DNA of 51,410 bases from a virus (taxonomy: Duplodnaviria; Caudoviricetes), in the IMG/VR virus record IMGVR_UViG_3300035703_000130, positions 1 through 51,410 of that record; one strand, 5' to 3'. A program made the position numbers and the translations under genes. Positions 30,754 to 46,538 of this stretch are shown here, one piece after another. How positions within the stretch are numbered: the stretch's first letter is position 1; each line of letters begins with the position of its first letter. The notes under the pieces were generated by a model that did no database searches, was not told the DNA's origin, and saw only the letters and a program-made list of their open reading frames with translations.

Positions 30754-31683
30754 TTAGAACAGGTCCTTTCTGATTTCTTTGACCTTAGCAATAGTCAGAC
30801 GTTGCAGGAGTTTGAAGTCAACTTTGGGATTATTGAACTTCTTCATAAAGTTCCAGGTTTCTTCGGTGATCAGATCATACCAAACTACACCAAGTAGTTG
30901 CCCGATATATTTGCTATTCCAACCGTCATGTTGCAGAGTAATCTTAGCAACAACCTTATCAACCAAATGCTGATTGACAAAATCGTTGACGATCTTTTCC
31001 TCTACAAGATCACCGTTGATAATCGGTGCACCCATTTCCTTGTGGTGGACTTCCTTGAAAGCGTTGGTAATCATCTTGGCCCAAACAACACGGCCAAAGC
31101 GATTGCTCCAACCGTAATTCTTTAGGACAATACCTTCACCGACACCCTGACCGTCTTTAATCAGGAAGACGTTACGCTCTAGGACACCTTGCAGTTGCTC
31201 ATAAGAGGGGTTCTTAAGGATAGCTATAGGCGCAAGGTAATCAATACCGTAAGCATCAAGCAGCGGTTTGTAATCTTCGTATTTCAAAAGATCGCCGTTT
31301 GAACCCATCACGTCAAACACATAGAACTTACGCCATGCGTCATCCCGGTAGGTTTTAAGCGAGTGAGGCACAAGCCATTCACCCACCAGCCGCAAGGTCG
31401 GGAAGGCCATAAAAAAGGCCGTATACCGCTTGTCCGCGAGGGCATGGGCATAGAACCCAGCGTTATCGTTACCCACGCTCAGGACGCGATTCCGAGAGCC
31501 TGCACATAGGCCAAGCGACCCGGCAGGGGCAAGCGCACCATCAGCAGCAATACCACCCTGCCCCCACCAGAGTTGACCGTTAGTGCCATCCAGCTTCGGG
31601 AAGGCGTAAACAATACCTTCCGTGATCCCTTCAACCTCGTCATTGCCAAGGCGCTCAAGGTGCATATACTTAGCGAAATCCAT
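30754..31683 (-). CDS. ATP-dependent RNA ligase (Rnl2-like)
   Basis: PKLDGTN (KxDG), GSR, GEW, FYVFD, GEGIVLK, WAK motifs. Confidence 0.85.
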   Translation of the reverse strand: MDFAKYMHLERLGNDEVEGITEGIVYAFPKLDGTNGQLWWGQGGIAADGALAPAGSLGLCAGSRNRVLSVGNDNAGFYAHALADKRYTAFFMAFPTLRLVGEWLVPHSLKTYRDDAWRKFYVFDVMGSNGDLLKYEDYKPLLDAYGIDYLAPIAILKNPSYEQLQGVLERNVFLIKDGQGVGEGIVLKNYGWSNRFGRVVWAKMITNAFKEVHHKEMGAPIINGDLVEEKIVNDFVNQHLVDKVVAKITLQHDGWNSKYIGQLLGVVWYDLITEETWNFMKKFNNPKVDFKLLQRLTIAKVKEIRKDLF

Positions 31684-32630
31684 TATTTTCTCTTTCTGTC
31701 GTTACAAGCCCAATAGTCTGGATTATCAGGGTCACCGAAGGCAACAACACCAGCAGTAGAGTTGCTCGTATCTCTAAGCCCAGACCCAATGACTAGATAG
31801 TCTGCATCATATACCCGAACATAACGGTAGTTGTCAATATAAGGGCAAAGGAAGCGGTCAGTCCGGTAAGGAACCCTCAGAAGCTTTAGACCATGCCAGC
31901 CACCATCGCCAACTTCAAGAGCACCAACACTCTTAAGATAATCCTTAATAAGTCCCGTAGAATGATTACAAGAGCTATAAATTCTGTTGGGAATATACTT
32001 CCCATCTTTTACTCCGACAACACAGCGCGCCCTAGTCTTACCTTTCTTATTCCTAACGGTCACTACAATAAAATCACCAGAGGCATATACAACAGAGGGG
32101 TGATCTGGTAGAGGGCTAAAAGGATATCGCATACAACTATCTGAGATAGAGGCACAGTCGTAAGCGTAGGAGAAGTTGCCACGGGTTCTAACGTAAGACG
32201 TAAAAGCCCTCTTGAAATCCTCTTTGGTATTTCCTACGTGGAGAACAAAATCGTCATCATCAAACAGGATATTGGTTTGCCAGAAGGCAGCAAAAGCCTC
32301 TACCAATTGATCAGGCGCTTTGGGGAAAATGCGACGGAAGAAGCGGCCCGCAGTCGTCTTAGTGCGATGACGAACCAACCCACCCATATACTTGTTGTAG
32401 CTATCAAAGTAGCTAATGTTTTCCCCATCAGACGCTTGCTTAGGAAGCATAAGCTTCATCAAAGTTTGAACCTGATCAACACTTTCCCCTAGAAGATCAG
32501 CAGCATTAAGCAGACCGTCAACAATCTTCTTGTTTTGAACACGCTTAGTAAGCCGGGGACGAGGGGTATCTGGGTTCTGGAAATGAAATGACTTCCACCA
32601 ACCTTCAATCATGCTTTCAATATGGTTCAT
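31683..32630 (-). CDS. SCM-motif hypothetical protein, paralog of 38638-40092
   Basis: AGRFFRRIFP, SCMR, HP..VY, RAR, PYID shared with the early protein. Confidence 0.7.
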   Translation of the reverse strand: MNHIESMIEGWWKSFHFQNPDTPRPRLTKRVQNKKIVDGLLNAADLLGESVDQVQTLMKLMLPKQASDGENISYFDSYNKYMGGLVRHRTKTTAGRFFRRIFPKAPDQLVEAFAAFWQTNILFDDDDFVLHVGNTKEDFKRAFTSYVRTRGNFSYAYDCASISDSCMRYPFSPLPDHPSVVYASGDFIVVTVRNKKGKTRARCVVGVKDGKYIPNRIYSSCNHSTGLIKDYLKSVGALEVGDGGWHGLKLLRVPYRTDRFLCPYIDNYRYVRVYDADYLVIGSGLRDTSNSTAGVVAFGDPDNPDYWACNDRKRK

Positions 32631-32920: not shown

Positions 32921-33289
32921 TTAATTAAATGTCAACCCTACACAACGTTTCGAGCAGTAAGGGCCATCCTTACCTTGGCTTCTGTTGTGTTTTTCTTGGC
33001 TTAAAGCCCTTTGAAACTTGTTTCCACAGCGTTTGCAAGTTAACTCTACAGTAACAGCTTTTGGAGAAGATTTCCTTGCATTTTCTGTTTTAAGTAGAAG
33101 TTGAAAATTGTCAAGACTGTTATTAGTCAAATCATCGTCTTTGTGATCTACCTCATAACCAAAAGGTATTTCACCAAAAGTCTGTTTCCATAGATATCTT
33201 GGATAGGACTCTGTTGTTCTTTTACCCTCAGAGTAATGCACAACGTGTTGTCTACCGTCTTTTCTAGTGTAAGGTCCGTAAGTTTTCAT
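32921..33289 (-). CDS. HNH endonuclease in tRNA cluster
   Basis: YGPY..KDGR, SYPRY, VDHKD.D..NN.LDN, C-terminal CxxC...YCSKRC. Confidence 0.85.
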   Translation of the reverse strand: MKTYGPYTRKDGRQHVVHYSEGKRTTESYPRYLWKQTFGEIPFGYEVDHKDDDLTNNSLDNFQLLLKTENARKSSPKAVTVELTCKRCGNKFQRALSQEKHNRSQGKDGPYCSKRCVGLTFN

Positions 33290-33294
33290 AGTTT

Positions 33295-33371
33295 TGGTCC
33301 GGGTGGCGAGATTCGAACTCGCATTGGAGAGGGTTTAAGGCTCTTGCCGTTACCAGTTAGGCTACACCCGG
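33295..33371 (-). tRNA. tRNA with TAA anticodon (nominal Leu), short variable loop
   Basis: CCGGGTG/CACCCGG-ACCA, D loop AACTGGTAA, CT-TAA-AC, GCGAG-TTCGAAT-CTCGC. Confidence 0.8.
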
Positions 33372-33430
33372 CAGGAATATCGTGTCGGTCTTTCCCGACT
33401 GTCAGATACCATTAGGTATCAATCAGACCT

Positions 33431-33646
33431 TTAATCCGCAAGGTCGGTGGTGGCGTTGACAATCTCCAAGCGGGAGTCAATCAGGAACTTTTCTTGAGCA
33501 AGCGTTGCCAGCGTATCATCCCTTTGGACAGGATTATAGTGACGAACGATGGTCAGAGGAATCCGAGTCCCATCCGGTTGAGAAACAAATTCTTCCTTGA
33601 TACCCCTCTTGATAGCATCACTAATGACACTAACAACAAAGGGCAA
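33431..33646 (-). CDS. Small hypothetical protein between tRNAs
   Basis: Open frame from TTG after tRNA-Glu; start uncertain. Confidence 0.4.
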   Translation of the reverse strand: MPFVVSVISDAIKRGIKEEFVSQPDGTRIPLTIVRHYNPVQRDDTLATLAQEKFLIDSRLEIVNATTDLAD

Positions 33647-33651
33647 GTTAT

Positions 33652-33726
33652 TGGTAGCCCCACCGAGACTCGAACTCGGTTTCCCGCCTTGAAAGGGCAG
33701 TGATCTAACCCATAATCTATGGGGCC
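33652..33726 (-). tRNA. tRNA-Glu(TTC)
   Basis: GGCCCCA/TGGGGCT-ACCA, CTGCC-CTTTCAA-GGCGG, TTCGAGT. Confidence 0.88.
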
Positions 33727-33740
33727 ACACTCAGACAACC

Positions 33741-33768
33741 TATATAGTGCGCGACAAGAGAACTTCAA
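33741..33768 (-). promoter_or_regulatory. Promoter of tRNA operon
   Basis: TTGAAG-N12-GCACTATATA, same layout as 41846 and 43286. Confidence 0.7.
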
Positions 33769-33841
33769 GTGTAGTAATTTTGCCACACCTACCAAGTGTT
33801 GCATAAACGACACACTGTCAACTTTATTTTTAGGTTGTCTC

Positions 33842-33955
33842 TTGACAAATTCTTTCACGACCCCATCTATTAATACTAGAGTCTTAGTTCTAGAGTCTCT
33901 TTGATTATTCATGTAAGATTAATAAGAGACTCTAGTATAAGATACTATAGTATTA
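33842..33955. repeat. TTGACA followed by AT-rich AGACTCTAG/GATACTATAGTA repeat block (origin-like)
   Basis: Three AGACTCTAG copies in mixed orientation; 20-bp identity with 41956-41975. Confidence 0.55.
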
Positions 33956-34297
33956 GCGTTGAGTGAAAACTTCTTTTACCTCCCCACTCTTGTAGAAGAT
34001 ACGGATATCTGGTTTAGTCCAGCCGTAGTTATTAGCAAGATATTGGGCATAATCTTCTATGTTGTCTTCTTTAATCCAAGGTTTCTCTAGATTGATTTCT
34101 TTACCAGAAACCCACCTATCACCACAGCAACTACAATCATAGCCATCATCTACACCATTATAGTAGACCCCAAAGTCAAGGGCTTTTTGTTCGGCTTCAT
34201 CATAATTATCAGCTTCAATAAAGATTTGATGACAAATCTTGTCATCAGTATAGAAAGTTCCACCAGAGTTATTCTGACTCCATTCATAAAAAGCCAT
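33953..34297 (-). CDS. Hypothetical protein (QNNSGG...DCSCCGDRW)
   Basis: GGAGG RBS; phage-typical motif. Confidence 0.65.
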   Translation of the reverse strand: MAFYEWSQNNSGGTFYTDDKICHQIFIEADNYDEAEQKALDFGVYYNGVDDGYDCSCCGDRWVSGKEINLEKPWIKEDNIEDYAQYLANNYGWTKPDIRIFYKSGEVKEVFTQR

Positions 34298-34452
34298 CAG
34301 TAATCCTCCTCATCTTCGTAGTAATCATCATAGTCATCATCTGTATTACAGAATACACAGATATCATCATCTTGAACTGACCTGTAGTATTCCTTTGTTT
34401 CTCTTCCACATTCAGCACAAATAAATGTGTCTTCTGGATCATATGGTTTCAT
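34297..34452 (-). CDS. Small Zn-finger protein with acidic tail
   Basis: CAEC...CVFC and D/E/Y-rich tail; 51-aa ORF read manually. Confidence 0.55.
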   Translation of the reverse strand: MKPYDPEDTFICAECGRETKEYYRSVQDDDICVFCNTDDDYDDYYEDEEDY

Positions 34453-35789: not shown

Positions 35790-35827
35790 CTTCTAGCATG
35801 TCTAGCAAGTTGTTGTCAAGTGATTCG
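35790..35827 (-). promoter_or_regulatory. Sigma70-like promoter with an adjacent YGAKTCG site
   Basis: CGAATCA immediately upstream of TTGACA...GCTAGAAG. Confidence 0.5.
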
Positions 35828-35930
35828 CGCAGCCACCTGTCAAGATTCATCTTACACAACCTCATCTAGAACGAGGTGGGACCCCTTGCGACCCCACCCC
35901 AAACGTGGACTTTGAGATTGACAAAAATTC

Positions 35931-37360: not shown

Positions 37361-37603
37361 CTAAAAATTGAAGTCTAGTTGCTCTTCTAAGTTGATAATA
37401 GTCAGTTCAGCATCATAGCCACTAAAATACATTTTAACCCAATCACGGCCCTCTTGTTTAAAAACCCAACCAACATCATCTATAAGGTAAACATCTCCTT
37501 TTTTGTAGGCGTAGTAACAACTATTTGTCACTAGGACCTTCTTATTATAGAAAGAAACTGGAATATGTTGACCCATAGGTTTAATCATGTTCTGACCTCT
37601 CAA
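37361..37603 (-). CDS. Hypothetical protein
   Basis: First gene of the leftward arm. Confidence 0.5.
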   Translation of the reverse strand: MRGQNMIKPMGQHIPVSFYNKKVLVTNSCYYAYKKGDVYLIDDVGWVFKQEGRDWVKMYFSGYDAELTIINLEEQLDFNF

Positions 37604-38637
37604 TCTCGTTGTGAAGTGTATCTCACAAGTGCTAGTGATTCGTCAAGCGATCATTTCCACCGTAGCCCTGCTCATTTCCCTCATGGGTGGGTATACCCTA
37701 GCTGGGTGGGGTGCTCATTTCCACCGTGGGGGTGAGCTTTTCCATCGTGGGTTGTGTTTTCAGGCTTTGACCCTAAACTTTTGTTTATGTGACATTTCTG
37801 CCAATTTGAAACAATTCGTGATTTGACAAAACATAAATGCAACATGTGTGACATTTCTGCAACTGTGTCTGATTCGCGACAGTGTGACAATATTGTTGCA
37901 ACACTCCCGATTGACTGACGAGTCATTGACTAGCGAGTCAGTGGATTTGGCCTGTCACATTTCAGCAACAAACGTGACATATCGGCAACATGGGTCTAGG
38001 ACGCGATAGAAAGGCCGCCAGAGGGGCGATAGGCTTGCCCGGTATCCTGACCTGAAAACTTTCGACTTGACAGGTTAGCGGCGAAATTGGGTTTTCCGTA
38101 TGTGATTCGGACCCACGACACACAATATCTTGTGCCTTTCGCTGCATTGCAGCATCACAATATTTCTGACTCTTTCGCTTATTGTAACATTCCGTTACCA
38201 GTGCCTAAAATTTAGACTCATCAAGTTTTGTGACAACACAGCTTTGTGATTTGCTGTAACAATAGCAAAGAATCATTTGACAAATTCAGAATCACTAGAT
38301 TAGGTCCGAAGCGGACTGATTCGCAGTCGTCCAGTCTCCCTGTTTTTTGCGAGTCGAGTGCCGACCCCCGCCGAGTCCCTGCCCGGTTCATACGAATCAA
38401 TATAATCGAGTATCCAGGCGGACACAAGCCCTTGTAACAATTCGTGATCTAGGGAAGCTGGCACATGACACTAAAGGAATCGGGCGCGCGCGTAGTCCAA
38501 CATCTAGGTGGAAGTCAATAGGGAATCGTATCAAAAATCAAAATATCCAGGAAACGTGACATTTTTACATCAGTTGTCCAGCTTGGCGCTATCTGGCAAG
38601 GTGCAGTTAATGAGTCGTCAACCCACGGAGTCACGCC
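37604..38637. promoter_or_regulatory. Large divergent non-coding control region with GANTC and TGT-N12-ACA-like arrays
   Basis: No credible ORF; about 17 GANTC sites; repeated TGTGACATTTCTGC and TCATTTCCACCGT. Confidence 0.7.
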
Positions 38638-40092
38638 ATGTCACATGAGTCGGCAATTCCCGAGAAGATTAAAAACGCTGAAAAGCTTTTGTCTGAAATG
38701 CAAAAGGTTCGGGCAAATTTTTATACTTTTACGACACGCTGGTCTTATTTTATTATGGATCATATCACGTTCCCATATCGCCAGCAAAATGTCCTTGATT
38801 GGGAATCCATCACGGGAATTGATGTATATTCGTCTTTCAATCGCTACATTGCCGCTAATTATGCGGATGGATACATTGAAGGATTCACTAGCCTTTCCGA
38901 TATTTACCGCAGACGTCCAGTCAAGGCGAAAGCTGGAAAATTCATCCGCAAAATATTCCCCTTTATGACGGACTCCGAAGTTGAAAAGGCAGTCCAGAAT
39001 CTAAAGGAACAATTCAGCCCACTAGAATTTGATATCGTTATGGGCAATGACGCGGAGTCGTTCCGTTATGCATACGTAACAGAACATACGCCTAAGCGGA
39101 GTCCTAAGTTTGAACGTGGCGACTATTACCCAAAGCGCCTTGATTGCTCGTGCATGAGAGGGGATAACTTTGAAGGCTGGAAACAGCATCCGGCCGAGGC
39201 TTATGCACATTCGGACCTTGCGATTGTTTACGCGAAACAGAAAGGCAAGGATTATATTGGCGCGCGTGTAATTGTCTGGCCGGATAAGAAAACCTGCCAA
39301 TCTATCTATACGGCGGATGATGAAGCGACTCGCGTTATTTCCGAATATCTGAAAGCTAATGGATATAAGGAAAGCGGAATCCGTGGCGCTAAAATGTCTA
39401 AGATTCATTATAGAGGCGATTATTACCTTATGCCGTATATTGACGGCGAGGATTTTGTAGAGGATTGCGAGGATCACTTTGTCATTGGGCAAGGTGGGAT
39501 TGCGCTGTGCGGCACTAGTGGACGTGTTAGCGTTGTTCCTATGGCCTATTGTGACGATTGCGGGGATATGTATGAGGAGTCCGAATTAGAGTCCATTAAC
39601 GGGGAATGTTATTGCCCATCCTGCCGCTATAACAATCTCATATGGTCGGATTTGATGGACTCCTATGTTCGTCGGGATGAAGTTTGCGAGTCTGGCAATG
39701 GCGACATTGCGACTAGTGATTATTTCGAGTCGAATGGGTATGTGATCGACTATCGCGGCACATATCAAGATGAGTCAGAATGTGTGGAATTTGACGACGA
39801 ATATTACCACAATACGGATCACTATATCAAATCTGTTGACGGGGAATATTATCACGAAGACTCCGACGAATATCAAACTGCCTTGGATTTGAAGGCAAGA
39901 AAGGACGCGGCATATCAGACAATCACGACAATTCAATTCGGATGGACTCAATCTATGGATTGGAATTGCCAAATCCCGAAAAGGACTCCGCATATGGGAA
40001 TCGTCACGACACAAGAAAGGGTATTGCGCGACAACTACCAACTAGACGAAAACGGAATCCCGGAAAGATTGCCGGAATTTGACTTCGCCTAA
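38638..40092 (+). CDS. Early SCM-motif protein with C-terminal Cys/acidic repeats
   Basis: AGKFIRKIFP, SCMR, HP..AY, GAR, MPYID, then CDDC...CPSC; GGAG RBS. Confidence 0.8.
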   Translation: MSHESAIPEKIKNAEKLLSEMQKVRANFYTFTTRWSYFIMDHITFPYRQQNVLDWESITGIDVYSSFNRYIAANYADGYIEGFTSLSDIYRRRPVKAKAGKFIRKIFPFMTDSEVEKAVQNLKEQFSPLEFDIVMGNDAESFRYAYVTEHTPKRSPKFERGDYYPKRLDCSCMRGDNFEGWKQHPAEAYAHSDLAIVYAKQKGKDYIGARVIVWPDKKTCQSIYTADDEATRVISEYLKANGYKESGIRGAKMSKIHYRGDYYLMPYIDGEDFVEDCEDHFVIGQGGIALCGTSGRVSVVPMAYCDDCGDMYEESELESINGECYCPSCRYNNLIWSDLMDSYVRRDEVCESGNGDIATSDYFESNGYVIDYRGTYQDESECVEFDDEYYHNTDHYIKSVDGEYYHEDSDEYQTALDLKARKDAAYQTITTIQFGWTQSMDWNCQIPKRTPHMGIVTTQERVLRDNYQLDENGIPERLPEFDFA

Positions 40093-40141
40093 ATCCAGGC
40101 GGAATAGCCTAAACCTGAAACTGAAAGAAAGTAGGAATAAC

Positions 40142-40357
40142 ATGGTAAAAACCTATCAACTGGCAATCCTTGGCGAGTATGGCAACAAGCGTTTCATTGG
40201 CCCTAAGATGACGCTAAATCAGGCAGAACGTTATCAAGCTGATATGACGGCGGGCGGATTCCCTGTTGTGATTGTCAATCGGGCGGAAGGCTTTGACCCT
40301 ACCCTTAAGACTGGCGGGCGGAAAGTCTGGCAACGTTTCACTCTCTTGACAGTCTAA
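40142..40357 (+). CDS. Early hypothetical protein
   Basis: ATG 40142 after AGGA. Confidence 0.6.
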   Translation: MVKTYQLAILGEYGNKRFIGPKMTLNQAERYQADMTAGGFPVVIVNRAEGFDPTLKTGGRKVWQRFTLLTV

Positions 40358-40375
40358 CGCAAACAATGCTAGGAC
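40346..40375 (+). promoter_or_regulatory. Sigma70-like promoter with nearby GANTC sites
   Basis: TTGACA...GCTAGGAC; GACTC and CGAATCA just downstream. Confidence 0.5.
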
Positions 40376-40429
40376 TCACTTGTGGCAAGCGAATCAACGC
40401 TTAGCCCATAACCTCGAAAGGCTAGAAAG

Positions 40430-40792
40430 ATGACGAAAGCACAAGACACCACCGCGGCCACCGAGTCGAATGTTCCGGCTGTTGACCTCTCGACTCTGTC
40501 GGTGAAAGAGCTTGCCGATATGCTGGCAAAGGCCCGCCAAGCCGAAAAGGCTAAGAAAGCCGAAGTTTCCAGCTTGCCGCAATTCGCCTATGTGCTGGTA
40601 ATGGAAGACTCCAGCCTTGTTTACTGGTCTGGACGTGCCGCTAGTGCAGCGGATGCAACGCAAGCCGCGATTGCCTATGCCGAGAGTGAAGGCAAGAAAG
40701 TGTTTGTTGATGGTGACGGACTCAAGGGGATTGCCGCGCGTCCTATTCCTCAACCCCGTGGTCGCAAGGCTAAGGCACAAGACGCAAGCTAA
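40430..40792 (+). CDS. Early protein with H-NS-like N-terminus and AT-hook-like C-terminus
   Basis: DLSTLSVKELADML, WSGR, PRGRK. Confidence 0.6.
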   Translation: MTKAQDTTAATESNVPAVDLSTLSVKELADMLAKARQAEKAKKAEVSSLPQFAYVLVMEDSSLVYWSGRAASAADATQAAIAYAESEGKKVFVDGDGLKGIAARPIPQPRGRKAKAQDAS

Positions 40793-40873
40793 GGATTATT
40801 GATTGAGGCGCTAGGGTATCAAGCCCTAGCGTCTTGAATGAGTGATCCAAACAAGCTGGAAAGGGAATGAGAT

Positions 40874-41023
40874 ATGAAGACTCTGTGCACTTGGGATAAC
40901 GTGGCTTGTATCGTGGACTCTGCCATTGCTAATCCATCCGAGTCCGTTGCCTTTGGTGCGGTTGTGATTGGCTTGGCTTTGATTGCCAGTCTTGCCTTTG
41001 CATCTTACTGGAAAGGGTTTTAA
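40874..41023 (+). CDS. 49-aa single-TM early protein
   Basis: MKTLCTWDNVACIVDSAIANPSESVAFGAVVIGLALIASLAFASYWKGF, read manually. Confidence 0.55.
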   Translation: MKTLCTWDNVACIVDSAIANPSESVAFGAVVIGLALIASLAFASYWKGF

Positions 41024-41025
41024 TC

Positions 41026-41097
41026 ATGGCTGGAGTCGTGGTGATCTTTGCAAGCTTGGCCTTCTGGCTTGCCTTGTTTGTCGCATGGCTGATTTAG
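41026..41097 (+). CDS. 23-aa hydrophobic peptide
   Basis: MAGVVVIFASLAFWLALFVAWLI, immediately before a terminator. Confidence 0.45.
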   Translation: MAGVVVIFASLAFWLALFVAWLI

Positions 41098-41126
41098 CTT
41101 AGCCTTTGTCGCGTGATCTATAGTTT

Positions 41127-41154
41127 ACCCCGCCTAGCGCGGGGTTTATTTTTG
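41127..41154 (+). terminator. Terminator of the early operon
   Basis: ACCCCGC-loop-GCGGGGT followed by TTATTTTT. Confidence 0.8.
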
Positions 41155-41632
41155 TCATATGTATTCACATATTCAAACCTGTATGATCCAGGCGGATAGG
41201 CCATAGGAAGGCCATAGAATAGGGGTTAGCCTTACACGGTATGGGGGTAGCGGGCAGGTCCTTAGCGGCCCTCTGGCGGCCCTCTCTGGCGCTGTAGCGG
41301 GGTATTGCAAAGGCAAGGGGATTCAATGGTCTAGGAATATTCTGGAATATATCTGATGAGTCCAGATACGCTATATTGACAGTGTAAAGATATAGCCAGA
41401 TTGGTAACCGAATCACTCCCCTATTTCTAAATTGTCAAGTAGAATCAGCATACTAGCGCATTATGTTCATATGTGTTGCACCTATGCCACTATGAGTCCA
41501 GATGTGTGATTAATGCAACAGGTCCAGGATTTCTGGTGCTATGATGCGATTGTCTCTTGACACGACAGCGGGAGTGTGAGTGGGACCCTCCAGATTATGA
41601 GCGGGTGATTCGCTGCGGTGTGGTTAGCAGAT

Positions 41633-41709
41633 ATATATCCAAGGAAAAAATACAAAGGTGTAATAATCTACAATGGGATATATCCAAGGAAAAAATACAA
41701 AGGTGTAAT
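41633..41709. repeat. Two 32-bp direct repeats, period 45 bp
   Basis: ATATATCCAAGGAAAAAATACAAAGGTGTAAT at 41633 and 41678. Confidence 0.9.
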
Positions 41710-41845
41710 GATTATGGCTAAAAGGTAACAATACATTTGTTTTTTGATTTGCTGCAGAATCTTGTCAAGGCCCACGACCAAAAAAAGAATCGTTTAGAAT
41801 CAACGAAAGATTGTAACCGATACAATATTTTTTGTAGGTCCCCTC

Positions 41846-41873
41846 TTGACAAACTCGCTTCGAGCACTATATT
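41846..41873 (+). promoter_or_regulatory. Promoter TTGACA-N12-GCACTATAT
   Basis: Shared layout with 43286 and 33741. Confidence 0.7.
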
Positions 41874-41990
41874 AAGACTCTAGTCTTTCAACCCATAAGA
41901 TGATTAGTTAATATAATAATTATTCATATACTAGAAATAACTATGATACTATAGTAACTAAGACTCTAGTATTAAGGATAATTCTAGAAT
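41874..41990. repeat. AT-rich AGACTCTAG/GATACTATAGTA block (origin-like)
   Basis: Shares motifs with 33870-33955. Confidence 0.55.
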
Positions 41991-42143
41991 CTGCTCAAGG
42001 CTCCTATAGAGTTGGTTGTGAATATTGATATTTTATAGGATTCATAACAGAATCTTGTATATTTCATCAATCTTATGTCGTGAAAGCGAGAATCGCTGTT
42101 GATTCTCATGTGTTTTATACGTTATAGCGAGAAAAAAGCCAAA

Positions 42144-42443
42144 ATGGTCGAAATTATACATGAATGGGGTGGTCCTCTATCATCTATCATATCTGTAGAT
42201 AGAAAAGGTCAATGTATTGACTTCATCTATGAGAACACAGTAGTTCCAACCCCCGGAGATTACCTTTCTTGGGACTACAACATTGATGGGCACATTCTTA
42301 CCATAGAAAATGCTATGGATAAGGTTCCAGATGGAATGTCAGTCACTCCACTGCCCGGTTGGGAAGCTGTCACTGAGCTTTCTGTCGTTGCACCTGATTG
42401 GGCCACCACTGTTATTACTATTTGTCAGCAGCTACTTGGATGA
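42144..42443 (+). CDS. Hypothetical protein
   Basis: ORF; likely ATG 42144. Confidence 0.5.
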   Translation: MVEIIHEWGGPLSSIISVDRKGQCIDFIYENTVVPTPGDYLSWDYNIDGHILTIENAMDKVPDGMSVTPLPGWEAVTELSVVAPDWATTVITICQQLLG

Positions 42444-43042
42444 GAGTATTAGTTGCGTGTGAGTATTCTGGTGTCGTGAGGCGAGCCTTTAGGGCCAGAG
42501 GGCATGAAGCTTGGTCTTGTGATTTACTGGATAGTGAAGATAGTAGTCCATTTCATTATAAGTGTGATGTGATAGAGGTTTTAGATAATTCCTGGAACTT
42601 AATCGTTGCTCACCCCCCTTGCACCTATTTGACTGTCGCAGCTAACAAATGGCTGTATCACCCAGAAGATAAGCATTTACCCGTTAGTGAACGTAGACCA
42701 CACCCTCAATACCCTACCAGACAACAAGATATGCTTGATGCGGTAGAGTTTGCCAAGATGTTCTATGATAAAGCTGAGAAGGTTGCTGTTGAGAACCCTA
42801 AAGGCAGATTGTCTACTTTATGGAGGCCACCGGATCAAATCATACAACCTTGGCAGTTTGGTCATGGTGAAGTTAAGGGAACCCACTTGTGGTTAAAGAA
42901 TCTGCCTAAACTCACTCCAACTGATGTTGTCGAGGGTCGAGAGGCTAAGATTTGGAAGATGGGGCCTAGAGAAGATCGCTGGAAAGAGCGTAGTAGAACT
43001 TATGAAGGAATTGCTAAAGCTATGGCGGAGCAGTGGGGCTAA
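42440..43042 (+). CDS. DNA C5-cytosine methyltransferase-like protein
   Basis: MRVLVACEYSG, AWSCD, AHPPCT (PC), ENP, RSRTY.GIA.AMAEQW; start refined to ATG 42440. Confidence 0.8.
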   Translation: MRVLVACEYSGVVRRAFRARGHEAWSCDLLDSEDSSPFHYKCDVIEVLDNSWNLIVAHPPCTYLTVAANKWLYHPEDKHLPVSERRPHPQYPTRQQDMLDAVEFAKMFYDKAEKVAVENPKGRLSTLWRPPDQIIQPWQFGHGEVKGTHLWLKNLPKLTPTDVVEGREAKIWKMGPREDRWKERSRTYEGIAKAMAEQWG

Positions 43043-43266
43043 TGGATAAAGATCAAAGAATCGCTGAATTGGAGGAGTTTGTGCAGAGACTACAGTGGGA
43101 AGTCAGAAATGCCTACTGTCTAGGTTATACTGCTGCTAAGCCGGGTAGAGGACAAAGTAAGATCAATCCCGAAAAGGGAGAATGGTTTGACCATTGGTTG
43201 TTGTCGAAATCCCGTCAAATGCTGGTAAATTGGGGTGTTATCGGAGAAAAAGACACCTATCGCTAA
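43042..43266 (+). CDS. Hypothetical protein
   Basis: TAATG-coupled start. Confidence 0.55.
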   Translation: MDKDQRIAELEEFVQRLQWEVRNAYCLGYTAAKPGRGQSKINPEKGEWFDHWLLSKSRQMLVNWGVIGEKDTYR

Positions 43267-43285
43267 AAATATTTTCATTCACCCC

Positions 43286-43313
43286 TTGACAAATCAAGAT
43301 TTCGCACTATATA
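43286..43313 (+). promoter_or_regulatory. Promoter TTGACA-N12-GCACTATAT
   Basis: Shared layout. Confidence 0.7.
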
Positions 43314-43438
43314 TACTAACATGAAGGGCAACCTACAGAAGTCCCCAACACTACGATTGATTTAGGCTCTCTCGTAGCCGATGCCCTTCTGATAACTTAA
43401 ACGGGCGGTATGCCCATAATCTTTAAAGAAAGCTTAAC

Positions 43439-43690
43439 ATGAAAAACTTCCTTTTTGCTACTGTCACGGCCTTCTCGCTTCTGGCTTTCCCGGCCCTTGC
43501 TTGTGAAACCAAAGCTGTCGCTGGCTCGAACTACACTGTGAAAGTTGACCCGACTTGTCAATTCGCAGATAATCGGGGTGGTGAAGGTTTCCTTTTCCTC
43601 TCGGTTGATGACGATCAAGACGTGACGACTCCGAACAAGGCCGCTGTTGCCCTGTCGAAGACCCCGGATGCTGTCGCGGTCATTAACTAA
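43439..43690 (+). CDS. Small exported protein (Sec signal peptide)
   Basis: MKNFLFATVTAFSLLAFPALA then mature domain with two Cys. Confidence 0.65.
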   Translation: MKNFLFATVTAFSLLAFPALACETKAVAGSNYTVKVDPTCQFADNRGGEGFLFLSVDDDQDVTTPNKAAVALSKTPDAVAVIN

Positions 43691-43813
43691 CTACTACTAA
43701 CTGAAAATACCTTTGGGGGTTGGTTGGATAAACCCCTATCTATTTTCTATCTGGCCCTTCCCTCTAGTGGCGCGCTTAGACTTTTGGTCGGGGTTAGACA
43801 GTAAATAGATTTT

Positions 43814-43888
43814 AGGGGTGATGCGATACAGTTTCGCCAGCGGTCTCCAAAACCGTCAGACAGGGTGCAAGTCCCTGCACCTTTGCCA
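43814..43888 (+). tRNA. tRNA-Trp(CCA), atypical T loop
   Basis: AGGGGTG/CACCTTT-GCCA, GCGGT-CTCCAAA-ACCGT, T loop TGCAAGT. Confidence 0.8.
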
Positions 43889-43892
43889 AATA

Positions 43893-43970
43893 TGCTAGGA
43901 AGGTGTTGTTGGTATACATTCCTGACTGTTAATCAGGTTTAAGCTTGGTTCGAATCCAAGAGTAGCAGCA
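43893..43970 (+). tRNA. tRNA-Asn(GTT), degenerate acceptor
   Basis: CCTGA-CTGTTAA-TCAGG, CTTGG-TTCGAAT-CCAAG; two acceptor mismatches, no encoded CCA. Confidence 0.7.
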
Positions 43971-44003
43971 TTAATCTTACCATATCATCTACGAAGGTAA
44001 ACG

Positions 44004-44417
44004 ATGAGTAAGAACACAGACTTAAAAACCAAACAGTTGGGGATGCCTATCGGCACAGCCTCTAACAAACTAAGAAAAAGTATACTTTGGAAGTATATAG
44101 TTTTATCAGGGGATAACTTCTGTTTCCAGTGTGGTTCTGAGATTATTAGTCAGGACGACCTATCCATAGAACATAAAATTCCGTGGTTACATTCAAAAGA
44201 CCCCCTATCTCTGTTTATGGATTTAGACAACATAGCTTTTTCGCACTTGTCTTGTAATGTCGGCGCTGCCAGAAAACAACAAGCCCCTCACGGAACACCC
44301 ACTAAGTATAACAAAGGGTGTCGTTGTGATCTTTGTAGGGTTGCTAATGCAGCCCGAGCTAAAAAAGACTATACTACAGATAAAAGACGAGAAAAATATC
44401 TGCGCTCTGGACATTGA
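44004..44417 (+). CDS. HNH endonuclease in tRNA cluster
   Basis: CFQCG...IEHKIPW...NIAFSHLSCN, C-terminal HGT...GCRCDLC. Confidence 0.85.
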   Translation: MSKNTDLKTKQLGMPIGTASNKLRKSILWKYIVLSGDNFCFQCGSEIISQDDLSIEHKIPWLHSKDPLSLFMDLDNIAFSHLSCNVGAARKQQAPHGTPTKYNKGCRCDLCRVANAARAKKDYTTDKRREKYLRSGH

Positions 44418-44603
44418 GCAGCAGCCATTCCCACCCTATGTTTGCCGTGTAGGGTTCGGAGTATCGCCGCTTTGTTTTGTTGGCTTTCTCAAGCGGAAAC
44501 GGCTAATATAAACTACCGCCCGAGTCGATTGTGACAGGATTAATAGAACCCGTTCTTGAAGGTTCCGGTAGTAATTATCCCCAATTATCCAGAAAAAATA
44601 ATT

Positions 44604-44678
44604 GCTGCCACGCGCACGGGTTGCGTCCTCCGCCTTCCAAGCGGTAGAGCACGGGTTCGAGTCCCGTTGGCCGCTCCA
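44604..44678 (+). tRNA. tRNA-Gly(TCC), atypical
   Basis: GCTGCCA/TGGCCGC-TCCA, CCGC-CTTCCAA-GCGG, ACGGG-TTCGAGT-CCCGT. Confidence 0.8.
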
Positions 44679-44752
44679 ATACAACGCCATAAGGTGCGCC
44701 CTGTGGCCCCCTCAGAGGCTACGGCCTTTGGGGTTATTCCTGTAGGTGAAAT

Positions 44753-45142
44753 ATGCACAGTCAAGCCCTCCCATACGATATGAAGATTGCCGAGACTGTT
44801 CAACGAATGGTCGCTTCTGGCGTTAGTGTCAATGTCATCTTTGATACTACCAAAGAAATGAAAAACGGACCTCAATCCCTCACCACATTTTATAAGCTTT
44901 ACCGAAAAGACCTTGTTGCTGCTAGGGCGGCTCTCCATGAGGGTGTTGGTAACCTTATTGTAAAGAAAGCTATGGATGGTGACGTTAAGCTTCTTGAACT
45001 CTTAGCTAAGACTAAACTTGGTTGGAGCGAGAAGGTTATCGTTGAAGAGCAAGACCCGAATAGTATGGATGAAAACACCAGTGCTATTGATGATCTGCTC
45101 GCCAAGCTGAACCTGAAAGCAAAACAGGATGAATCAAACTAG
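44753..45142 (+). CDS. terS: Terminase small subunit
   Basis: TFYKLY...G...KA.DGD...KTKLGW pattern; directly upstream of terL. Confidence 0.75.
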   Translation: MHSQALPYDMKIAETVQRMVASGVSVNVIFDTTKEMKNGPQSLTTFYKLYRKDLVAARAALHEGVGNLIVKKAMDGDVKLLELLAKTKLGWSEKVIVEEQDPNSMDENTSAIDDLLAKLNLKAKQDESN

Positions 45143-46538
45143 TTTAGGTAAGAATGGCCTCAATCTTCACGCCGATGACCTCAGATCAATGGGGTATGAC
45201 GTAGAAGACATGCTTAGGCAGTTAGATGCCAAAAAAGCAGAGGAACTTCTGTTCACTTGGAGATTCTGGGCTAGGCCCGAACAACTTCCTCCTAAGACAA
45301 CCTTATCAGGCGAACCGTGGAATAACTGGCTAATCAATGCTGGTCGTGGATTCGGTAAAACCCGTGCTGGTGTTGAATGGTGTCGTGAAAAGATCAAACG
45401 CGGTTTTAGACGCGGTATGGCTGTTGCTGCTACCAACTCTGATATTGAACGTGTTATGATCAAAGGGGAAAGTGGTTTCCTCGCTTGTTGCTGGAAAGGT
45501 GACAGGGACGTTAACGGAAAAGAAATTGGTGCGCCTGAGTGGTCCCCTACTAAAAGGACCTTAACTTGGGCTAACGGTGCTACTATTACGTTCTTCTCAG
45601 CGGAAGAACCTGAACGCCTCAGAGGACCGCAAGGCGACTTTGCTTGGTGTGATGAACTCTGTGCTTGGAACAGAGACCGTGATACTTGGGACATGCTGCA
45701 ATTCTGTTTGCGCTTGGGTAAACACCCTCAAGTCTGTATCACAACAACTCCCAAACCAACTAAACTTATCCGGGATATCTTAAAGCATCCCAAAACAGTT
45801 GTTACTACTGGTTCTACATTTGATAACAAAGCGAACCTCGCTGAAACATATGTAGAGAACGTTAAGGCCACGTATGAAGGCTCCAGGATTGGCCGTCAAG
45901 AGCTTTATGCTGAAATTCTTGATGAAGCTTCTGGTGCGTTGTGGACAAGAGACCTTCTCTCTAAATGCGAGATTGAAATCGAAGACCCGGTAGAATTTGC
46001 TAAGACACTCAATCGTGTTGTCGTCTCAGTAGACCCGCAGATCACAGTTAACGAAGAATCGGACATGACAGGTATTGTTGTGGCTGGTATCGACGTAAAC
46101 GGTATTTGCTATGTTCTCCAAGATGCAACCGAGAGGTTTACCCCAGAGGGTTGGGCGTCTAAAGCAGTAGAACTTTATCATCTATATGAAGCTGATCGTA
46201 TTGTCGCTGAGAGAAATCAAGGTGGCGAAATGGTCAGACACACGTTTAAGACTGTAGATGAAACAATCCCAATCAAGCTAGTCCACGCTTCTCGTGGTAA
46301 GTTTGCCCGTGCTGAACCTGTGTCGTCCCTTTACGAAAGGGGTAGGGTTAGGCATAATCGCGGCTTGGACGCCTTAGAGGATCAGATGGTTCAATGGTGC
46401 CCACTAGGGTCCATAGGATCACCGGACAGGTTAGATGCCTTAGTCTGGGCTATCACCGAGTTGGCTCTTAAGGGTGTTTCTCGTCCAGAGTTAAGTCTTA
46501 GTTACGGTGATGCAAAAGGTATCAGTATTCATGTTTAA
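45129..46538 (+). CDS. terL: Terminase large subunit
   Basis: AGRGFGKT, PERLRGPQ, AWCDE, TTTPKP, VSVDP, SPDRLDA. Confidence 0.95.
   Translation: MNQTSLGKNGLNLHADDLRSMGYDVEDMLRQLDAKKAEELLFTWRFWARPEQLPPKTTLSGEPWNNWLINAGRGFGKTRAGVEWCREKIKRGFRRGMAVAATNSDIERVMIKGESGFLACCWKGDRDVNGKEIGAPEWSPTKRTLTWANGATITFFSAEEPERLRGPQGDFAWCDELCAWNRDRDTWDMLQFCLRLGKHPQVCITTTPKPTKLIRDILKHPKTVVTTGSTFDNKANLAETYVENVKATYEGSRIGRQELYAEILDEASGALWTRDLLSKCEIEIEDPVEFAKTLNRVVVSVDPQITVNEESDMTGIVVAGIDVNGICYVLQDATERFTPEGWASKAVELYHLYEADRIVAERNQGGEMVRHTFKTVDETIPIKLVHASRGKFARAEPVSSLYERGRVRHNRGLDALEDQMVQWCPLGSIGSPDRLDALVWAITELALKGVSRPELSLSYGDAKGISIHV

What the first reader, a model, noticed from the sequence alone, without database searches (positions are those of the whole stretch)
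37620..42110. GANTC island: early region packed with CcrM/GcrA-type sites
Seen: by manual count about 55 GANTC sites fall in 37.6-41.6 kb (about 65 up to 42.1 kb), against about 5 in the first 4 kb of the structural arm and about 16 expected by chance per 4 kb. The enrichment continues through coding sequence. About 14 sites match YGAKTCG or its reverse complement (TGATTCG, CGAGTCG, TGAGTCG, CGAATCA, CGACTCG), and several sit next to TTGACA promoters (40346; also 35821). Established: GANTC is methylated by alphaproteobacterial CcrM, and GcrA is a sigma70 cofactor preferring methylated YGAKTCG. Inference: the first-expressed segment is a methylation-gated landing pad that recruits GcrA-RNAP, or titrates GcrA/CcrM, tying early expression or DNA entry to the host cell-cycle circuit without a phage-encoded GcrA.
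Basis: partly seen in the sequence, partly recalled or inferred. Interest (0 to 1): 0.88.

Follow-up and report, generated by a model that had tools for sequence, protein, structure and literature searches.

The report
GANTC methylation-site island in roseophage
A family of abundant marine phages has removed the host's GANTC methylation word from most of its DNA but keeps it packed into one 3-4.5 kb control region, including promoters carrying the best known GcrA binding site, so phage gene expression is probably tied to the host's cell-cycle methylation system.

Summary
There are 65 GANTC sites in 37620-42110, against 19.0±4.1 in dinucleotide shuffles. The other 46.9 kb holds 87, half of expectation. 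The excess survives synonymous-codon shuffles.

The window is a complete uncultured phage genome. Its closest cultured relative is Roseobacter phage CRP-6, which has the same island. So do 25 of 26 environmental relatives with enough upstream sequence, across 16 lineages whose islands do not align. Unrelated phages of the same hosts only deplete GANTC.

The selected word is plain GANTC, equally dense in genes and spacers. The top variant is TGATTCG, the published best GcrA site. It sits at about +3..+9 of a conserved sigma-70-type promoter upstream of the terminase operon.

Best reading (0.45): an array of host CcrM sites read through GcrA-RNA polymerase. Methylation, start sites and GcrA binding are untested, and "first expressed" and "DNA entry" are unsupported. 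An origin/hemimethylation clock, a CcrM/GcrA sink, and a phage-encoded reader remain open.

I found no such island in print. Earlier unchecked notes of this scan describe similar islands in about 20 other phage genomes.

The parts
37604..42110 (.). GANTC island: 65 sites, 14.4 per kb, lying between the minus-strand replication arm (first gene ends at 37603) and the plus-strand packaging/structural arm (from 42099)
37604..38637 (.). Left non-coding control region with 17 GANTC (16.4 per kb), including five TGATTCG/CGAATCA at 37636, 37870, 38103, 38317 and 38393, TTGACA boxes and GTGACA-type repeats
37651..37752 (+). Iteron-like repeats ATTTCCACNGTGGGGG. The core TTCCACNGTGG recurs at the left edge of the island in 14 of 82 family sequences (24 hits), always on the plus strand, against about 1 hit in shuffles
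38638..40092 (+). 484-aa ORF of unknown function with 21 GANTC (14.4 per kb). Its paralogue at 31683-32630 (32% identity over 202 aa, E=8e-20) has none
40133..40357 (+). 74-aa ORF with tblastn matches in 11 of the 81 loci then held (L001-L081)
40430..40792 (+). 120-aa ORF of unknown function
40874..41023 (+). 49-aa ORF with 3 GANTC
41127..41145 (+). Terminator-like hairpin with a T run, closing the leader operon
41376..41438 (.). Face-to-face TTGACA boxes (plus strand 41376-41381, minus strand 41433-41438) sharing one CGAATCA/TGATTCG at 41409-41415. The same arrangement is visible in L002, L003 and L007, and in similar form in L040, L042, L011 and L018
41557..41612 (+). Conserved promoter 'element A': TTGACA (41557-41562), GGGACCC (41582-41588), GATTAT (41593-41598), TGATTCG (41606-41612)
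41633..41712 (+). Two 35-nt direct repeats (ATATATCCAAGGAAAAAATACAAAGG...). This word is conserved downstream of element A in relatives
41846..41880 (+). Near-consensus promoter TTGACA-16-TATATT with GACTC starting 3 nt after the -10 hexamer
35815..35850 (-). Outside the island: TGATTCG (35821) between two minus-strand TTGACA boxes
44753..46538 (+). Context: a conserved 129-aa gene (73 of 81 loci; likely small terminase by position only) and the large terminase, used as the anchor for relatives

Best explanation
The island is a cis-acting array of target sites for the host's cell-cycle DNA methyltransferase CcrM (GANTC). It occupies the control region between the two divergent arms of the phage genome. 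A subset of sites, the YGATTCG type, sits in or next to sigma-70-type promoters at the positions used by GcrA-activated promoters. These include a family-wide promoter upstream of the terminase/structural operon. I infer that methylated sites let the GcrA-RNA polymerase holoenzyme find and open these promoters. I also infer that the many surplus sites, inside genes as well, raise local capture of that holoenzyme or make the region's activity depend on its methylation state. That would couple phage expression to host CcrM activity. Shown here: the enrichment, its conservation, selection on the word, and the promoter context. Inferred: methylation, GcrA binding, and the direction and timing of the effect.
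For: Enrichment beyond shuffles and codon nulls. The same island is present in cultured CRP-6, with 38 of its 69 sites in the last 2.7 kb. In 25 of 26 IMG/VR relatives with at least 3 kb upstream of TerL, at least one upstream 1-kb bin holds 7 or more sites. With fixed windows, -4..-1 kb exceeds 0..+3 kb in 24 of 26 loci, and in 12 of 14 loci when one is taken per lineage. The islands fall into 16 DNA clusters that do not align with each other, and the genes inside are mostly not shared. Of 32 palindromic words only GANTC is high inside and low outside (o/e 3.06 against 0.37). Aligned sites are kept more often than control 5-mers, 547 of 1009 against 348 expected. TGATTCG is the top variant and makes up 14.8% of non-coding island sites. 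GANTC peaks 30-39 nt after TTGACA, 29 observed against 9 expected. Element A gave 41 hits in 37 of 82 sequences against about 1 in shuffles, all in TerL orientation except CRP-6, whose record is stored with TerL on the minus strand. It lies 0.9-2.2 kb upstream of TerL in most loci, and was found in 23 of 33 loci with at least 2.5 kb upstream. Haakonsen 2015 (passages) gives the GcrA consensus TGATTCG/YGAKTCK and places sites near -20 and from +2 to +30. [quoted passage not shown] A roseobacter, D. shibae, carries m6A in GANTC (figure legend). The GcrA domain was found in 130 of 201 sampled alphaproteobacterial genomes (the tally includes the unpublished genome G042).
Against: Flanks of the 522 pooled sites are close to background. 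YGAKTCK as a class is 132 of 471 against 25% expected (p=0.07). Density is the same in ORFs (11.3 per kb) and outside them (11.2 per kb), which promoter control does not need. Start sites are predicted, not mapped. With a stricter -35/-10 model the promoter-proximal excess was weak and post hoc, 22 against 12 expected over 54 sites. In the relatives the islands were delimited by GANTC density, so searches are partly circular for enrichment, though not for flanks or position. The window's host and its GcrA specificity are unknown. Three other RCA phages do without an island. Mascolo 2022 reports no positional asymmetry of GcrA sites in the alphaproteobacterial phages it scanned (passages). Its supplement was not visible, so I do not know whether CRP-6 was included.
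Confidence: 0.45

Rival explanations
1. Replication-origin or hemimethylation clock. The site cluster marks the phage origin region, so that passage of a fork (hemimethylation) or re-methylation by CcrM times initiation or the early-to-late switch. This would resemble GATC clusters at E. coli oriC and P1 origins (recalled, not from a call).
For: The island sits at the strand switch and at the minimum of cumulative GC skew. Iteron-like repeats are conserved at its left edge. The replisome is T7-like, and I found no initiator among the proteins I scanned. GANTC rises around ori in four alphaproteobacterial orders (passages). It is also enriched at ori, ter and conjugative plasmids of D. shibae (passage). 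GcrA times RepABC origins in A. tumefaciens (abstract).
Against: The cluster spans 3-4.5 kb and runs through genes, far larger than known origin clusters. No spacing periodicity of the kind a SeqA-like binder would need was seen. GC skew cannot be separated from gene orientation here. The best-conserved sites are in promoter context.
Confidence: 0.2
2. Sink or decoy. The array soaks up host CcrM or GcrA as phage DNA multiplies. This would stall host cell-cycle transcription, or keep the few other phage sites unmethylated.
For: Plain GANTC with background flanks, equal density in coding and non-coding DNA, and no positional order all fit a function that depends on site number. The rest of the genome and other roseophages purge the word.
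Against: CcrM turns over catalytically, so methylated sites stop competing. Individual sites are positionally conserved and a subset is tied to promoters. A sink would not need to lie in one place.
Confidence: 0.12
3. The reader is phage-encoded. A family-specific protein binds GANTC arrays for packaging, genome positioning or regulation, and the host CcrM plays no part.
For: The island is specific to this phage family, not to the host. It lies at a roughly fixed distance upstream of the small and large terminase genes. In D. shibae, DNA methylation lowered GTA packaging frequency (abstract), which links GANTC state to a related packaging machine.
Against: No candidate reader was found. The island proteins have no family assignment. 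A 3-4.5 kb span is far larger than any known pac site. The coincidence with the exact CcrM word and the GcrA optimum would be unexplained.
Confidence: 0.1
4. No function. The island would be a compositional or horizontal-transfer by-product, or simply a region where restriction avoidance is relaxed.
For: The island has its own k-mer history: CpG o/e is about 1.0-1.2 inside against 0.7 outside in most lineages. In CRP-6, CCGG, CCNGG and CGCG are purged outside the island but at expectation inside it. Gene content turns over fast.
Against: GANTC is 3-fold above the island's own dinucleotide expectation, not merely unpurged. It exceeds synonymous-codon nulls. Sites are retained more than control words. 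The pattern recurs in 16 unalignable lineages. In the window, GTAC avoidance does extend into the island, with 0 sites against 9.4 expected.
Confidence: 0.03

Closest known systems
GcrA/CcrM-dependent sigma-70 promoters of Caulobacter crescentus (Haakonsen 2015, PMC4647560, passages read; Wu 2023, PMC9976885, abstract read)
   Same: The word is GANTC, the preferred variant is TGATTCG, and sites sit in the spacer or just downstream of the start of TTGACA-type promoters.
   Different: In Caulobacter these are single or paired sites at scattered chromosomal promoters. Here 40-65 sites fill 3-4.5 kb of a phage, genes included, while the rest of the genome is purged. Binding and methylation are untested.
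CtrA-box clusters in alphaproteobacterial phages, 'lytic deferment' (Mascolo 2022, PMC9437464, passages read)
   Same: A phage borrows a host cell-cycle regulator through clustered cis sites.
   Different: The regulator and motif differ. The window has 2 full CtrA boxes (1.8 expected) and none in the island. That paper found no clustering of GcrA sites.
GANTC depletion in pelagiphage clades (Seong 2022, PMC9516812, passages read)
   Same: Genome-wide depletion of GANTC in marine phages of Alphaproteobacteria.
   Different: Only depletion is described there. No island of enrichment appears in the passages I read.
GATC clusters at E. coli oriC/dnaA and in phage P1 pac and origins (recalled, no call)
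   Same: Dense clusters of a solitary methylase's sites are used as a replication-coupled switch.
   Different: Those clusters span tens to hundreds of bases and have a known reader (SeqA, pacase).
GcrA control of RepABC replicons in Agrobacterium tumefaciens (Fournes 2026, PMC13687562, abstract read)
   Same: An extrachromosomal replicon is coupled to the host cycle through methylation-sensitive GcrA.
   Different: Those are plasmid or chromid initiator promoters, not a phage, and no site island is mentioned in the abstract.

Membership tests
GcrA-activated, CcrM-methylated sigma-70 promoter | A GANTC site within about 40 bp of the start site, near -20 or from +2 to +30, and not on the -10 element | tested here: inconclusive
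   In element A the site begins 8-13 nt after the -10 hexamer, roughly +3..+9. GANTC peaks 30-39 nt after TTGACA. Start sites are predicted only.
GcrA-activated, CcrM-methylated sigma-70 promoter | The site matches the high-affinity consensus TGATTCG / YGAKTCK | tested here: met
   TGATTCG or CGATTCG is present in element A across the family. TGATTCG is the top variant, 55 of 522 sites. Most other island sites do not match.
GcrA-activated, CcrM-methylated sigma-70 promoter | The adenine of GANTC is N6-methylated in vivo | not testable with these tools
   Only contigs of DNA runs were on offer, and these carry no methylation calls.
GcrA-activated, CcrM-methylated sigma-70 promoter | GcrA binds the promoter and raises transcription from it | not testable with these tools
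   This needs EMSA, ChIP or in vitro transcription.
GcrA-activated, CcrM-methylated sigma-70 promoter | The host encodes CcrM and GcrA | tested here: inconclusive
   The window's host is unknown. CRP-6 infects a Rhodobacteraceae strain. The GcrA domain was found in 130 of 201 sampled alphaproteobacterial genomes, shown without family names. D. shibae has m6A in GANTC.
Origin-type methylation-site cluster (oriC/SeqA, P1 oriR) | A compact cluster (up to a few hundred bases) beside initiator boxes and an AT-rich unwinding element | tested here: not met
   The cluster spans 4.5 kb at even density. Iteron-like repeats exist at one edge.
Origin-type methylation-site cluster (oriC/SeqA, P1 oriR) | Helically phased spacing of sites | tested here: not met
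   The 506 spacings show no preferred period.
Restriction-site avoidance | The word is depleted throughout the genome | tested here: not met
   GANTC is depleted outside the island (o/e 0.49) but 3.5-fold enriched inside it. By contrast GTAC is absent from both parts, with 1 site in 51.4 kb.
CtrA-box cluster (lytic deferment phages) | Clustered TTAA-N7-TTAA boxes | tested here: not met
   There are 2 boxes in the window against 1.8 expected, and none in the island.

The most novel reading that the evidence does not exclude
The island is an epigenetic timer. Freshly replicated phage genomes are unmethylated. Only when host CcrM has re-methylated the dense array does GcrA-RNA polymerase fire the conserved promoter ahead of the packaging/structural operon. 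An abundant family of ocean phages would thus use the host's cell-cycle methylase as the clock for its late genes, with no regulator of its own.
Probability: 0.25. Interest if true: 0.85.

Novelty: new variant of a known kind. Interest (0 to 1): 0.72.

Why it matters
CRP-6-type phages are reported to be ubiquitous in the ocean, and in coastal surface viromes about as abundant as T4-like cyanophages (PMC6918029, passage). If their control region is read through CcrM and GcrA, infection of a dominant marine bacterial group would depend on the host's cell-cycle state. It would also be a phage example of a methylation-site island used as a regulatory device in Alphaproteobacteria. The case comes with clear test objects: a cultured phage, a 56-nt conserved promoter and one 7-nt site. 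It also sharpens an open question raised for pelagiphages, namely why marine alphaproteobacterial phages purge GANTC. Here the same genome both purges the word and hoards it, which argues against simple restriction avoidance in these hosts.

Tried and rejected
- **DNA similarity.** A search of the island against 50,697 phage records found nothing. A search of 1-25000 found only short RNR matches.
- **The 484-aa island protein.** It has no Pfam, PHROG or PDB match. In the ESM Atlas it has only unnamed viral look-alikes, with PcfJ as a weak lead at 0.81.
- **The MTase-like gene at 42440-43042.** It matches PHROG 757 only, with no Pfam or PDB match. It has tblastn matches in one relative, so it cannot explain a family-wide island.
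- **RNA families.** Rfam found tRNAs outside the island and nothing inside it.
- **Extended motif and periodicity.** Flanks are near background and spacing is roughly geometric.
- **Strict E. coli-type promoter model.** It gave only a weak, post hoc excess of sites after the -10 element.
- **CtrA boxes.** None lie in the island.
- **TerL relatives in 48 bacterial loci.** These are mostly Kordiimonas and other Alphaproteobacteria. Of the 28 loci I profiled, the 27 that are not L117 have low GANTC and no island.
- **A general island of restriction sites.** I considered this after seeing CCGG, CCNGG and CGCG concentrated in the CRP-6 island. I rejected it because those words are only at expectation there, and only GANTC shows the high-inside, low-outside pattern when pooled.
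- **Sequencing runs.** No RNA holder is listed. Three coded DNA runs of one study were returned and none was laid.
- **Hidden supplements.** I did not see the ranking of the 32 NGANTCN variants in Haakonsen 2015 or the phage list and Figure S3 of Mascolo 2022.
- **Searches behind 'not in print'.** These were 'GANTC'+'phage' (104 papers, 25 listed), 'CcrM/roseobacter/GcrA', 'CRP-6/roseophage/RCA' and 'GANTC'+'Dinoroseobacter'. The CRP-6 paper has 0 occurrences of GANTC.

Full report
**What the window is.** The 51,410-base window is a whole virus record with a 127-base terminal direct repeat. Packaging and structural genes run on the plus strand from 42.1 kb through the end and on to 13.3 kb. 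Replication and nucleotide-metabolism genes run on the minus strand from 37.6 kb down to 13.3 kb. These include a primase-helicase, a split family-A polymerase, RNR, thymidylate synthase, PhoH and a DpdA-like gene.

The finding lies exactly between the two divergent arms. The nearest cultured relative by capsid is Roseobacter phage CRP-6 (51.6% identity), whose host is a Rhodobacteraceae strain of the RCA lineage. The window's own host is not known.

- There are 65 GANTC in 37620-42110 (14.5 per kb), against 87 in the other 46.9 kb (1.85 per kb).
- Dinucleotide shuffles of the island give 19.0±4.1, with a maximum of 34 in 1000.
- The region 1-37619 has 72 sites against 142.8±10.5.
- All four central bases are used.
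- Without any prior motif, GAGTC/GACTC and GAATC/GATTC are the two most enriched 5-mers in the island against the rest.
- Among 16 XYNY'X' words only GANTC stands out (o/e 3.79 inside, 0.49 outside).

**The excess is not an effect of protein composition.**
- Permuting synonymous codons within the four island ORFs gives 17.7±2.5, against 29 observed.
- The same test on 58 other ORFs gives 103.2±7.2, against 68 observed.
- That null is itself three times the genome average per kb, so the amino-acid sequences have been bent towards the word too.
- A natural control is the 484-aa island gene and its paralogue in the minus arm (32% identity over 202 aa, E=8e-20). The island copy has 21 sites and the paralogue has none.

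**The island is a family trait.**
- CRP-6 has 69 GANTC against 174 expected, and 38 of them lie in the last 2.7 kb of the record. That is the same place relative to the two arms.
- Eighty IMG/VR loci were fetched with the large terminase as anchor (62-86% identity).
- Twenty-six of them have at least 3 kb upstream. In 25 of those, at least one upstream 1-kb bin has 7-24 sites, while downstream bins never exceed 5. L062 is the exception.
- With fixed windows chosen in advance, -4..-1 kb beats 0..+3 kb in 24 of 26 loci. Taking one locus per lineage it does so in 12 of 14, with medians of 7.3 against 1.0 per kb.
- The islands fall into 16 groups that blastn cannot align to each other, and most island genes are not shared. 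The word is kept while the sequence around it is replaced.
- Within groups, aligned GANTC sites are retained in 547 of 1009 cases, against 348 expected from all other 5-mers. They are retained at least as often as controls in 33 of 34 pairs, which are not independent.

**Host effect versus family effect.** Three unrelated phages of the same RCA hosts are depleted in GANTC and have no island: CRP-1 (o/e 0.36), CRP-3 (0.30) and CRP-4 (0.40). RDJL Phi 1, a more distant capsid relative, has one site in 62.7 kb. Terminase relatives inside alphaproteobacterial genomes sit in GANTC-poor DNA without an island. One locus from a non-alphaproteobacterium (L117) has 1-9 per kb (mostly 4-9). So depletion looks host-driven and common, while the island belongs to the CRP-6-type family.

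**Restriction avoidance does not explain it.** The window has a true avoidance signature for GTAC, with 1 site in the genome and 0 in the island against 9.4 expected. GANTC is only halved outside the island and is tripled inside it.

I briefly considered a general island of restriction sites, because CCGG, CCNGG and CGCG in CRP-6 are almost confined to its island. Those words are merely at expectation there. When pooled over 16 lineages, only GANTC is both high inside and low outside (3.06 against 0.37). The islands do have their own composition: CpG is not depleted and GATC is low (0.63 against 1.03).

**What the sites look like.**
- Pooled over 16 lineages (522 sites), flanks and the central base are close to background, and spacing shows no period.
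- Density is the same in ORFs (11.3 per kb) and between them (11.2 per kb). The core requirement is therefore plain GANTC, the specificity of CcrM.
- One variant does stand out. TGATTCG is the commonest of the 32 NGANTCN forms (55 of 522) and is present in 15 of 16 lineages. Without L069 it accounts for 45 of 471 sites against 3.4% expected (p=9e-10). CGATTCG is second.
- TGATTCG makes up 14.8% of non-coding island sites and 7.5% of coding ones.
- In the window, 8 of its 11 copies are in the island, all outside accepted genes.
- Haakonsen 2015 derived exactly TGATTCG, more broadly YGAKTCK, as the GcrA consensus in Caulobacter. That paper places sites of GcrA-regulated promoters near -20 and from +2 to +30 (passages).
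- As a class, YGAKTCK is only marginally enriched here (28% against 25%, p=0.07).

**Promoter context.** Exact TTGACA is twice as frequent in islands as outside (1.77 against 0.88 per kb). GANTC peaks 30-39 nt after its start, 29 observed against 9 expected over 80 boxes. Many of these boxes are homologous, so the count overstates independence.

The clearest case is 'element A':
- **Layout.** TTGACA, 6-9 nt (more in the window), GGGACCC, 3-4 nt, a TATTAT/TATAAT-like hexamer, 8-13 nt, then (T/C)GATTCG.
- **Frequency.** A pattern requiring only GGGNCCC, a gap and YGATTCG hits 41 times in 37 of 82 family sequences, against about 1 in shuffles. All hits are in TerL orientation except CRP-6, whose record is stored with TerL on the minus strand.
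- **Position.** With TTGAC also required, it is found in 23 of 33 loci with at least 2.5 kb upstream. It lies 0.9-2.2 kb before the terminase gene in most loci, 3.5 kb in the window and 4.6 kb in L002.
- **Conservation.** In the 24-sequence alignment TTGAC and GGG-CCC are invariant. In L076 the promoter is a perfect TTGACA-17-TATAAT.
- **Window coordinates.** It is at 41557-41612.

Other promoter-linked arrangements:
- A second conserved arrangement has two TTGACA boxes facing each other across one shared TGATTCG (window 41376-41438).
- One lineage carries a tandem run of nine YGATTCG(TTC) units next to the iteron-like repeats (L069).

**Anatomy of the window's island.** All four parts carry 11-16 sites per kb.
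- **37604-38637.** A 1-kb non-coding region with iteron-like ATTTCCACNGTGGGGG repeats. These are conserved at the island's left edge in 14 of 82 sequences. It also holds GTGACA-type repeats and five TGATTCG.
- **38638-41098.** A leader operon of unknown genes, closed by a hairpin terminator at 41127-41145.
- **41099-42098.** A second 1-kb non-coding region with the face-to-face boxes, element A, two 35-nt direct repeats, and a near-consensus promoter at 41846 followed by GACTC.

**Interpretation.** The phage encodes no PF01555 methylase and no GcrA domain, so any reading of GANTC must come from the host or from an unrecognised phage protein.

The most economical account uses the host CcrM/GcrA pair. 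CcrM methylates GANTC. GcrA, bound to sigma-70, prefers methylated TGATTCG-like sites and, according to the abstract of Wu 2023, first finds its site and then loads polymerase on a nearby promoter. That explains the word, the preferred variant and the promoter positions.

It explains the kilobases of surplus sites only if they work as an antenna or as a methylation-state sensor. That is inference, and I put this reading at 0.45. An origin or hemimethylation clock (0.2), a sink for CcrM or GcrA (0.12), a phage-encoded reader or packaging role (0.1) and a by-product (0.03) are set out with their evidence in the Rival explanations section.

The conserved GcrA-type promoter faces the packaging/structural operon, which points to late expression at least as much as to early expression.

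**Novelty.** GANTC depletion in marine phages is published for pelagiphages (Seong 2022, passages). GANTC enrichment at ori, ter and conjugative plasmids of a roseobacter is also published. A search for clustered GcrA sites in alphaproteobacterial phages reported none (Mascolo 2022). The CRP-6 paper does not mention GANTC. The four literature searches I ran did not show a phage GANTC island in print.

After my analysis was done, I read this scan's own earlier notes. They describe similar GANTC islands, and GcrA-type boxes at fixed promoter positions, in about 20 other phage genomes. No look-alike of this window is among them. Those notes are unchecked AI notes and are not used as evidence. They do suggest the phenomenon is wider than this family.

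Noticed in passing
whole window: GTAC occurs once in 51.4 kb (about 139 expected outside the island and 9.4 inside it). This is a restriction-avoidance signature that includes the island. RDJL Phi 1 also has 1 GTAC.
   Followed up: partly
L087+L088 (RDJL Phi 1, NC_015466): There is only 1 GANTC in 62,668 bases (233 expected from base composition, 353 from dinucleotides). This is near-total purging in a cultured roseophage that encodes a CtrA-like regulator.
   Followed up: partly
L001 (CRP-6) 42201-44927: Of 16 CCGG, 14 lie in the island, as do 9 of 12 CCNGG and 13 of 28 CGCG. These words are at expectation inside and purged outside. GATC (0 against 7.6 expected) and GTAC (2 against 7.7) are low inside only. 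The island has a different word history from the rest of the genome.
   Followed up: partly
islands of 16 lineages (window 37620-42110 and L-loci): CpG o/e is about 1.0-1.2 in most islands against about 0.7 outside. GATC is low in islands (0.63 against 1.03).
   Followed up: partly
window 41613-41712; alignment A1 columns 75-130: The sequence downstream of element A is conserved across lineages (GGGTAACC..., then TATATATCCAAGACAAAAAATTTGA). The second word is duplicated in the window as two 35-nt repeats. It could be a leader RNA or a protein-binding site. There is no Rfam match.
   Followed up: partly
window 37651-37752; L069 6100-6220; L076 6860-6940: Iteron-like ATTTCCACNGTGGGGG repeats (1-3 exact cores per locus) mark the left edge of the island in 14 of 82 family sequences.
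   Followed up: partly
L069 6240-6360: Nine YGATTCG units lie in a tandem-like run (GATTCGTTCC...) beside the iteron-like repeats.
   Followed up: no
window 42440-43042 (+): A PHROG 757 'DNA methyltransferase' directly follows the island. It carries PPC and ENP motifs that resemble cytosine-C5 methylase motifs IV and VI (my reading of the translation). It has no Pfam or PDB match and was found in only one relative (L002).
   Followed up: partly
window 33101-34350 and 41846-41990: A small second GANTC cluster (10 sites) lies at the tRNA region. Its TTGACA promoter is followed by TAAGACTCTAG-type repeats that resemble those at 41873-41973.
   Followed up: no
L117 (Fimbriimonadales MAG locus): This is the one non-alphaproteobacterial terminase relative with long flanks. 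It has 1-9 GANTC per kb (mostly 4-9), unlike the alphaproteobacterial loci (0-2 per kb).
   Followed up: no
L062: This is the only relative with long upstream sequence and no island (0-2 sites per kb). It still carries homologues of the 484-aa gene and the M28-like peptidase.
   Followed up: no
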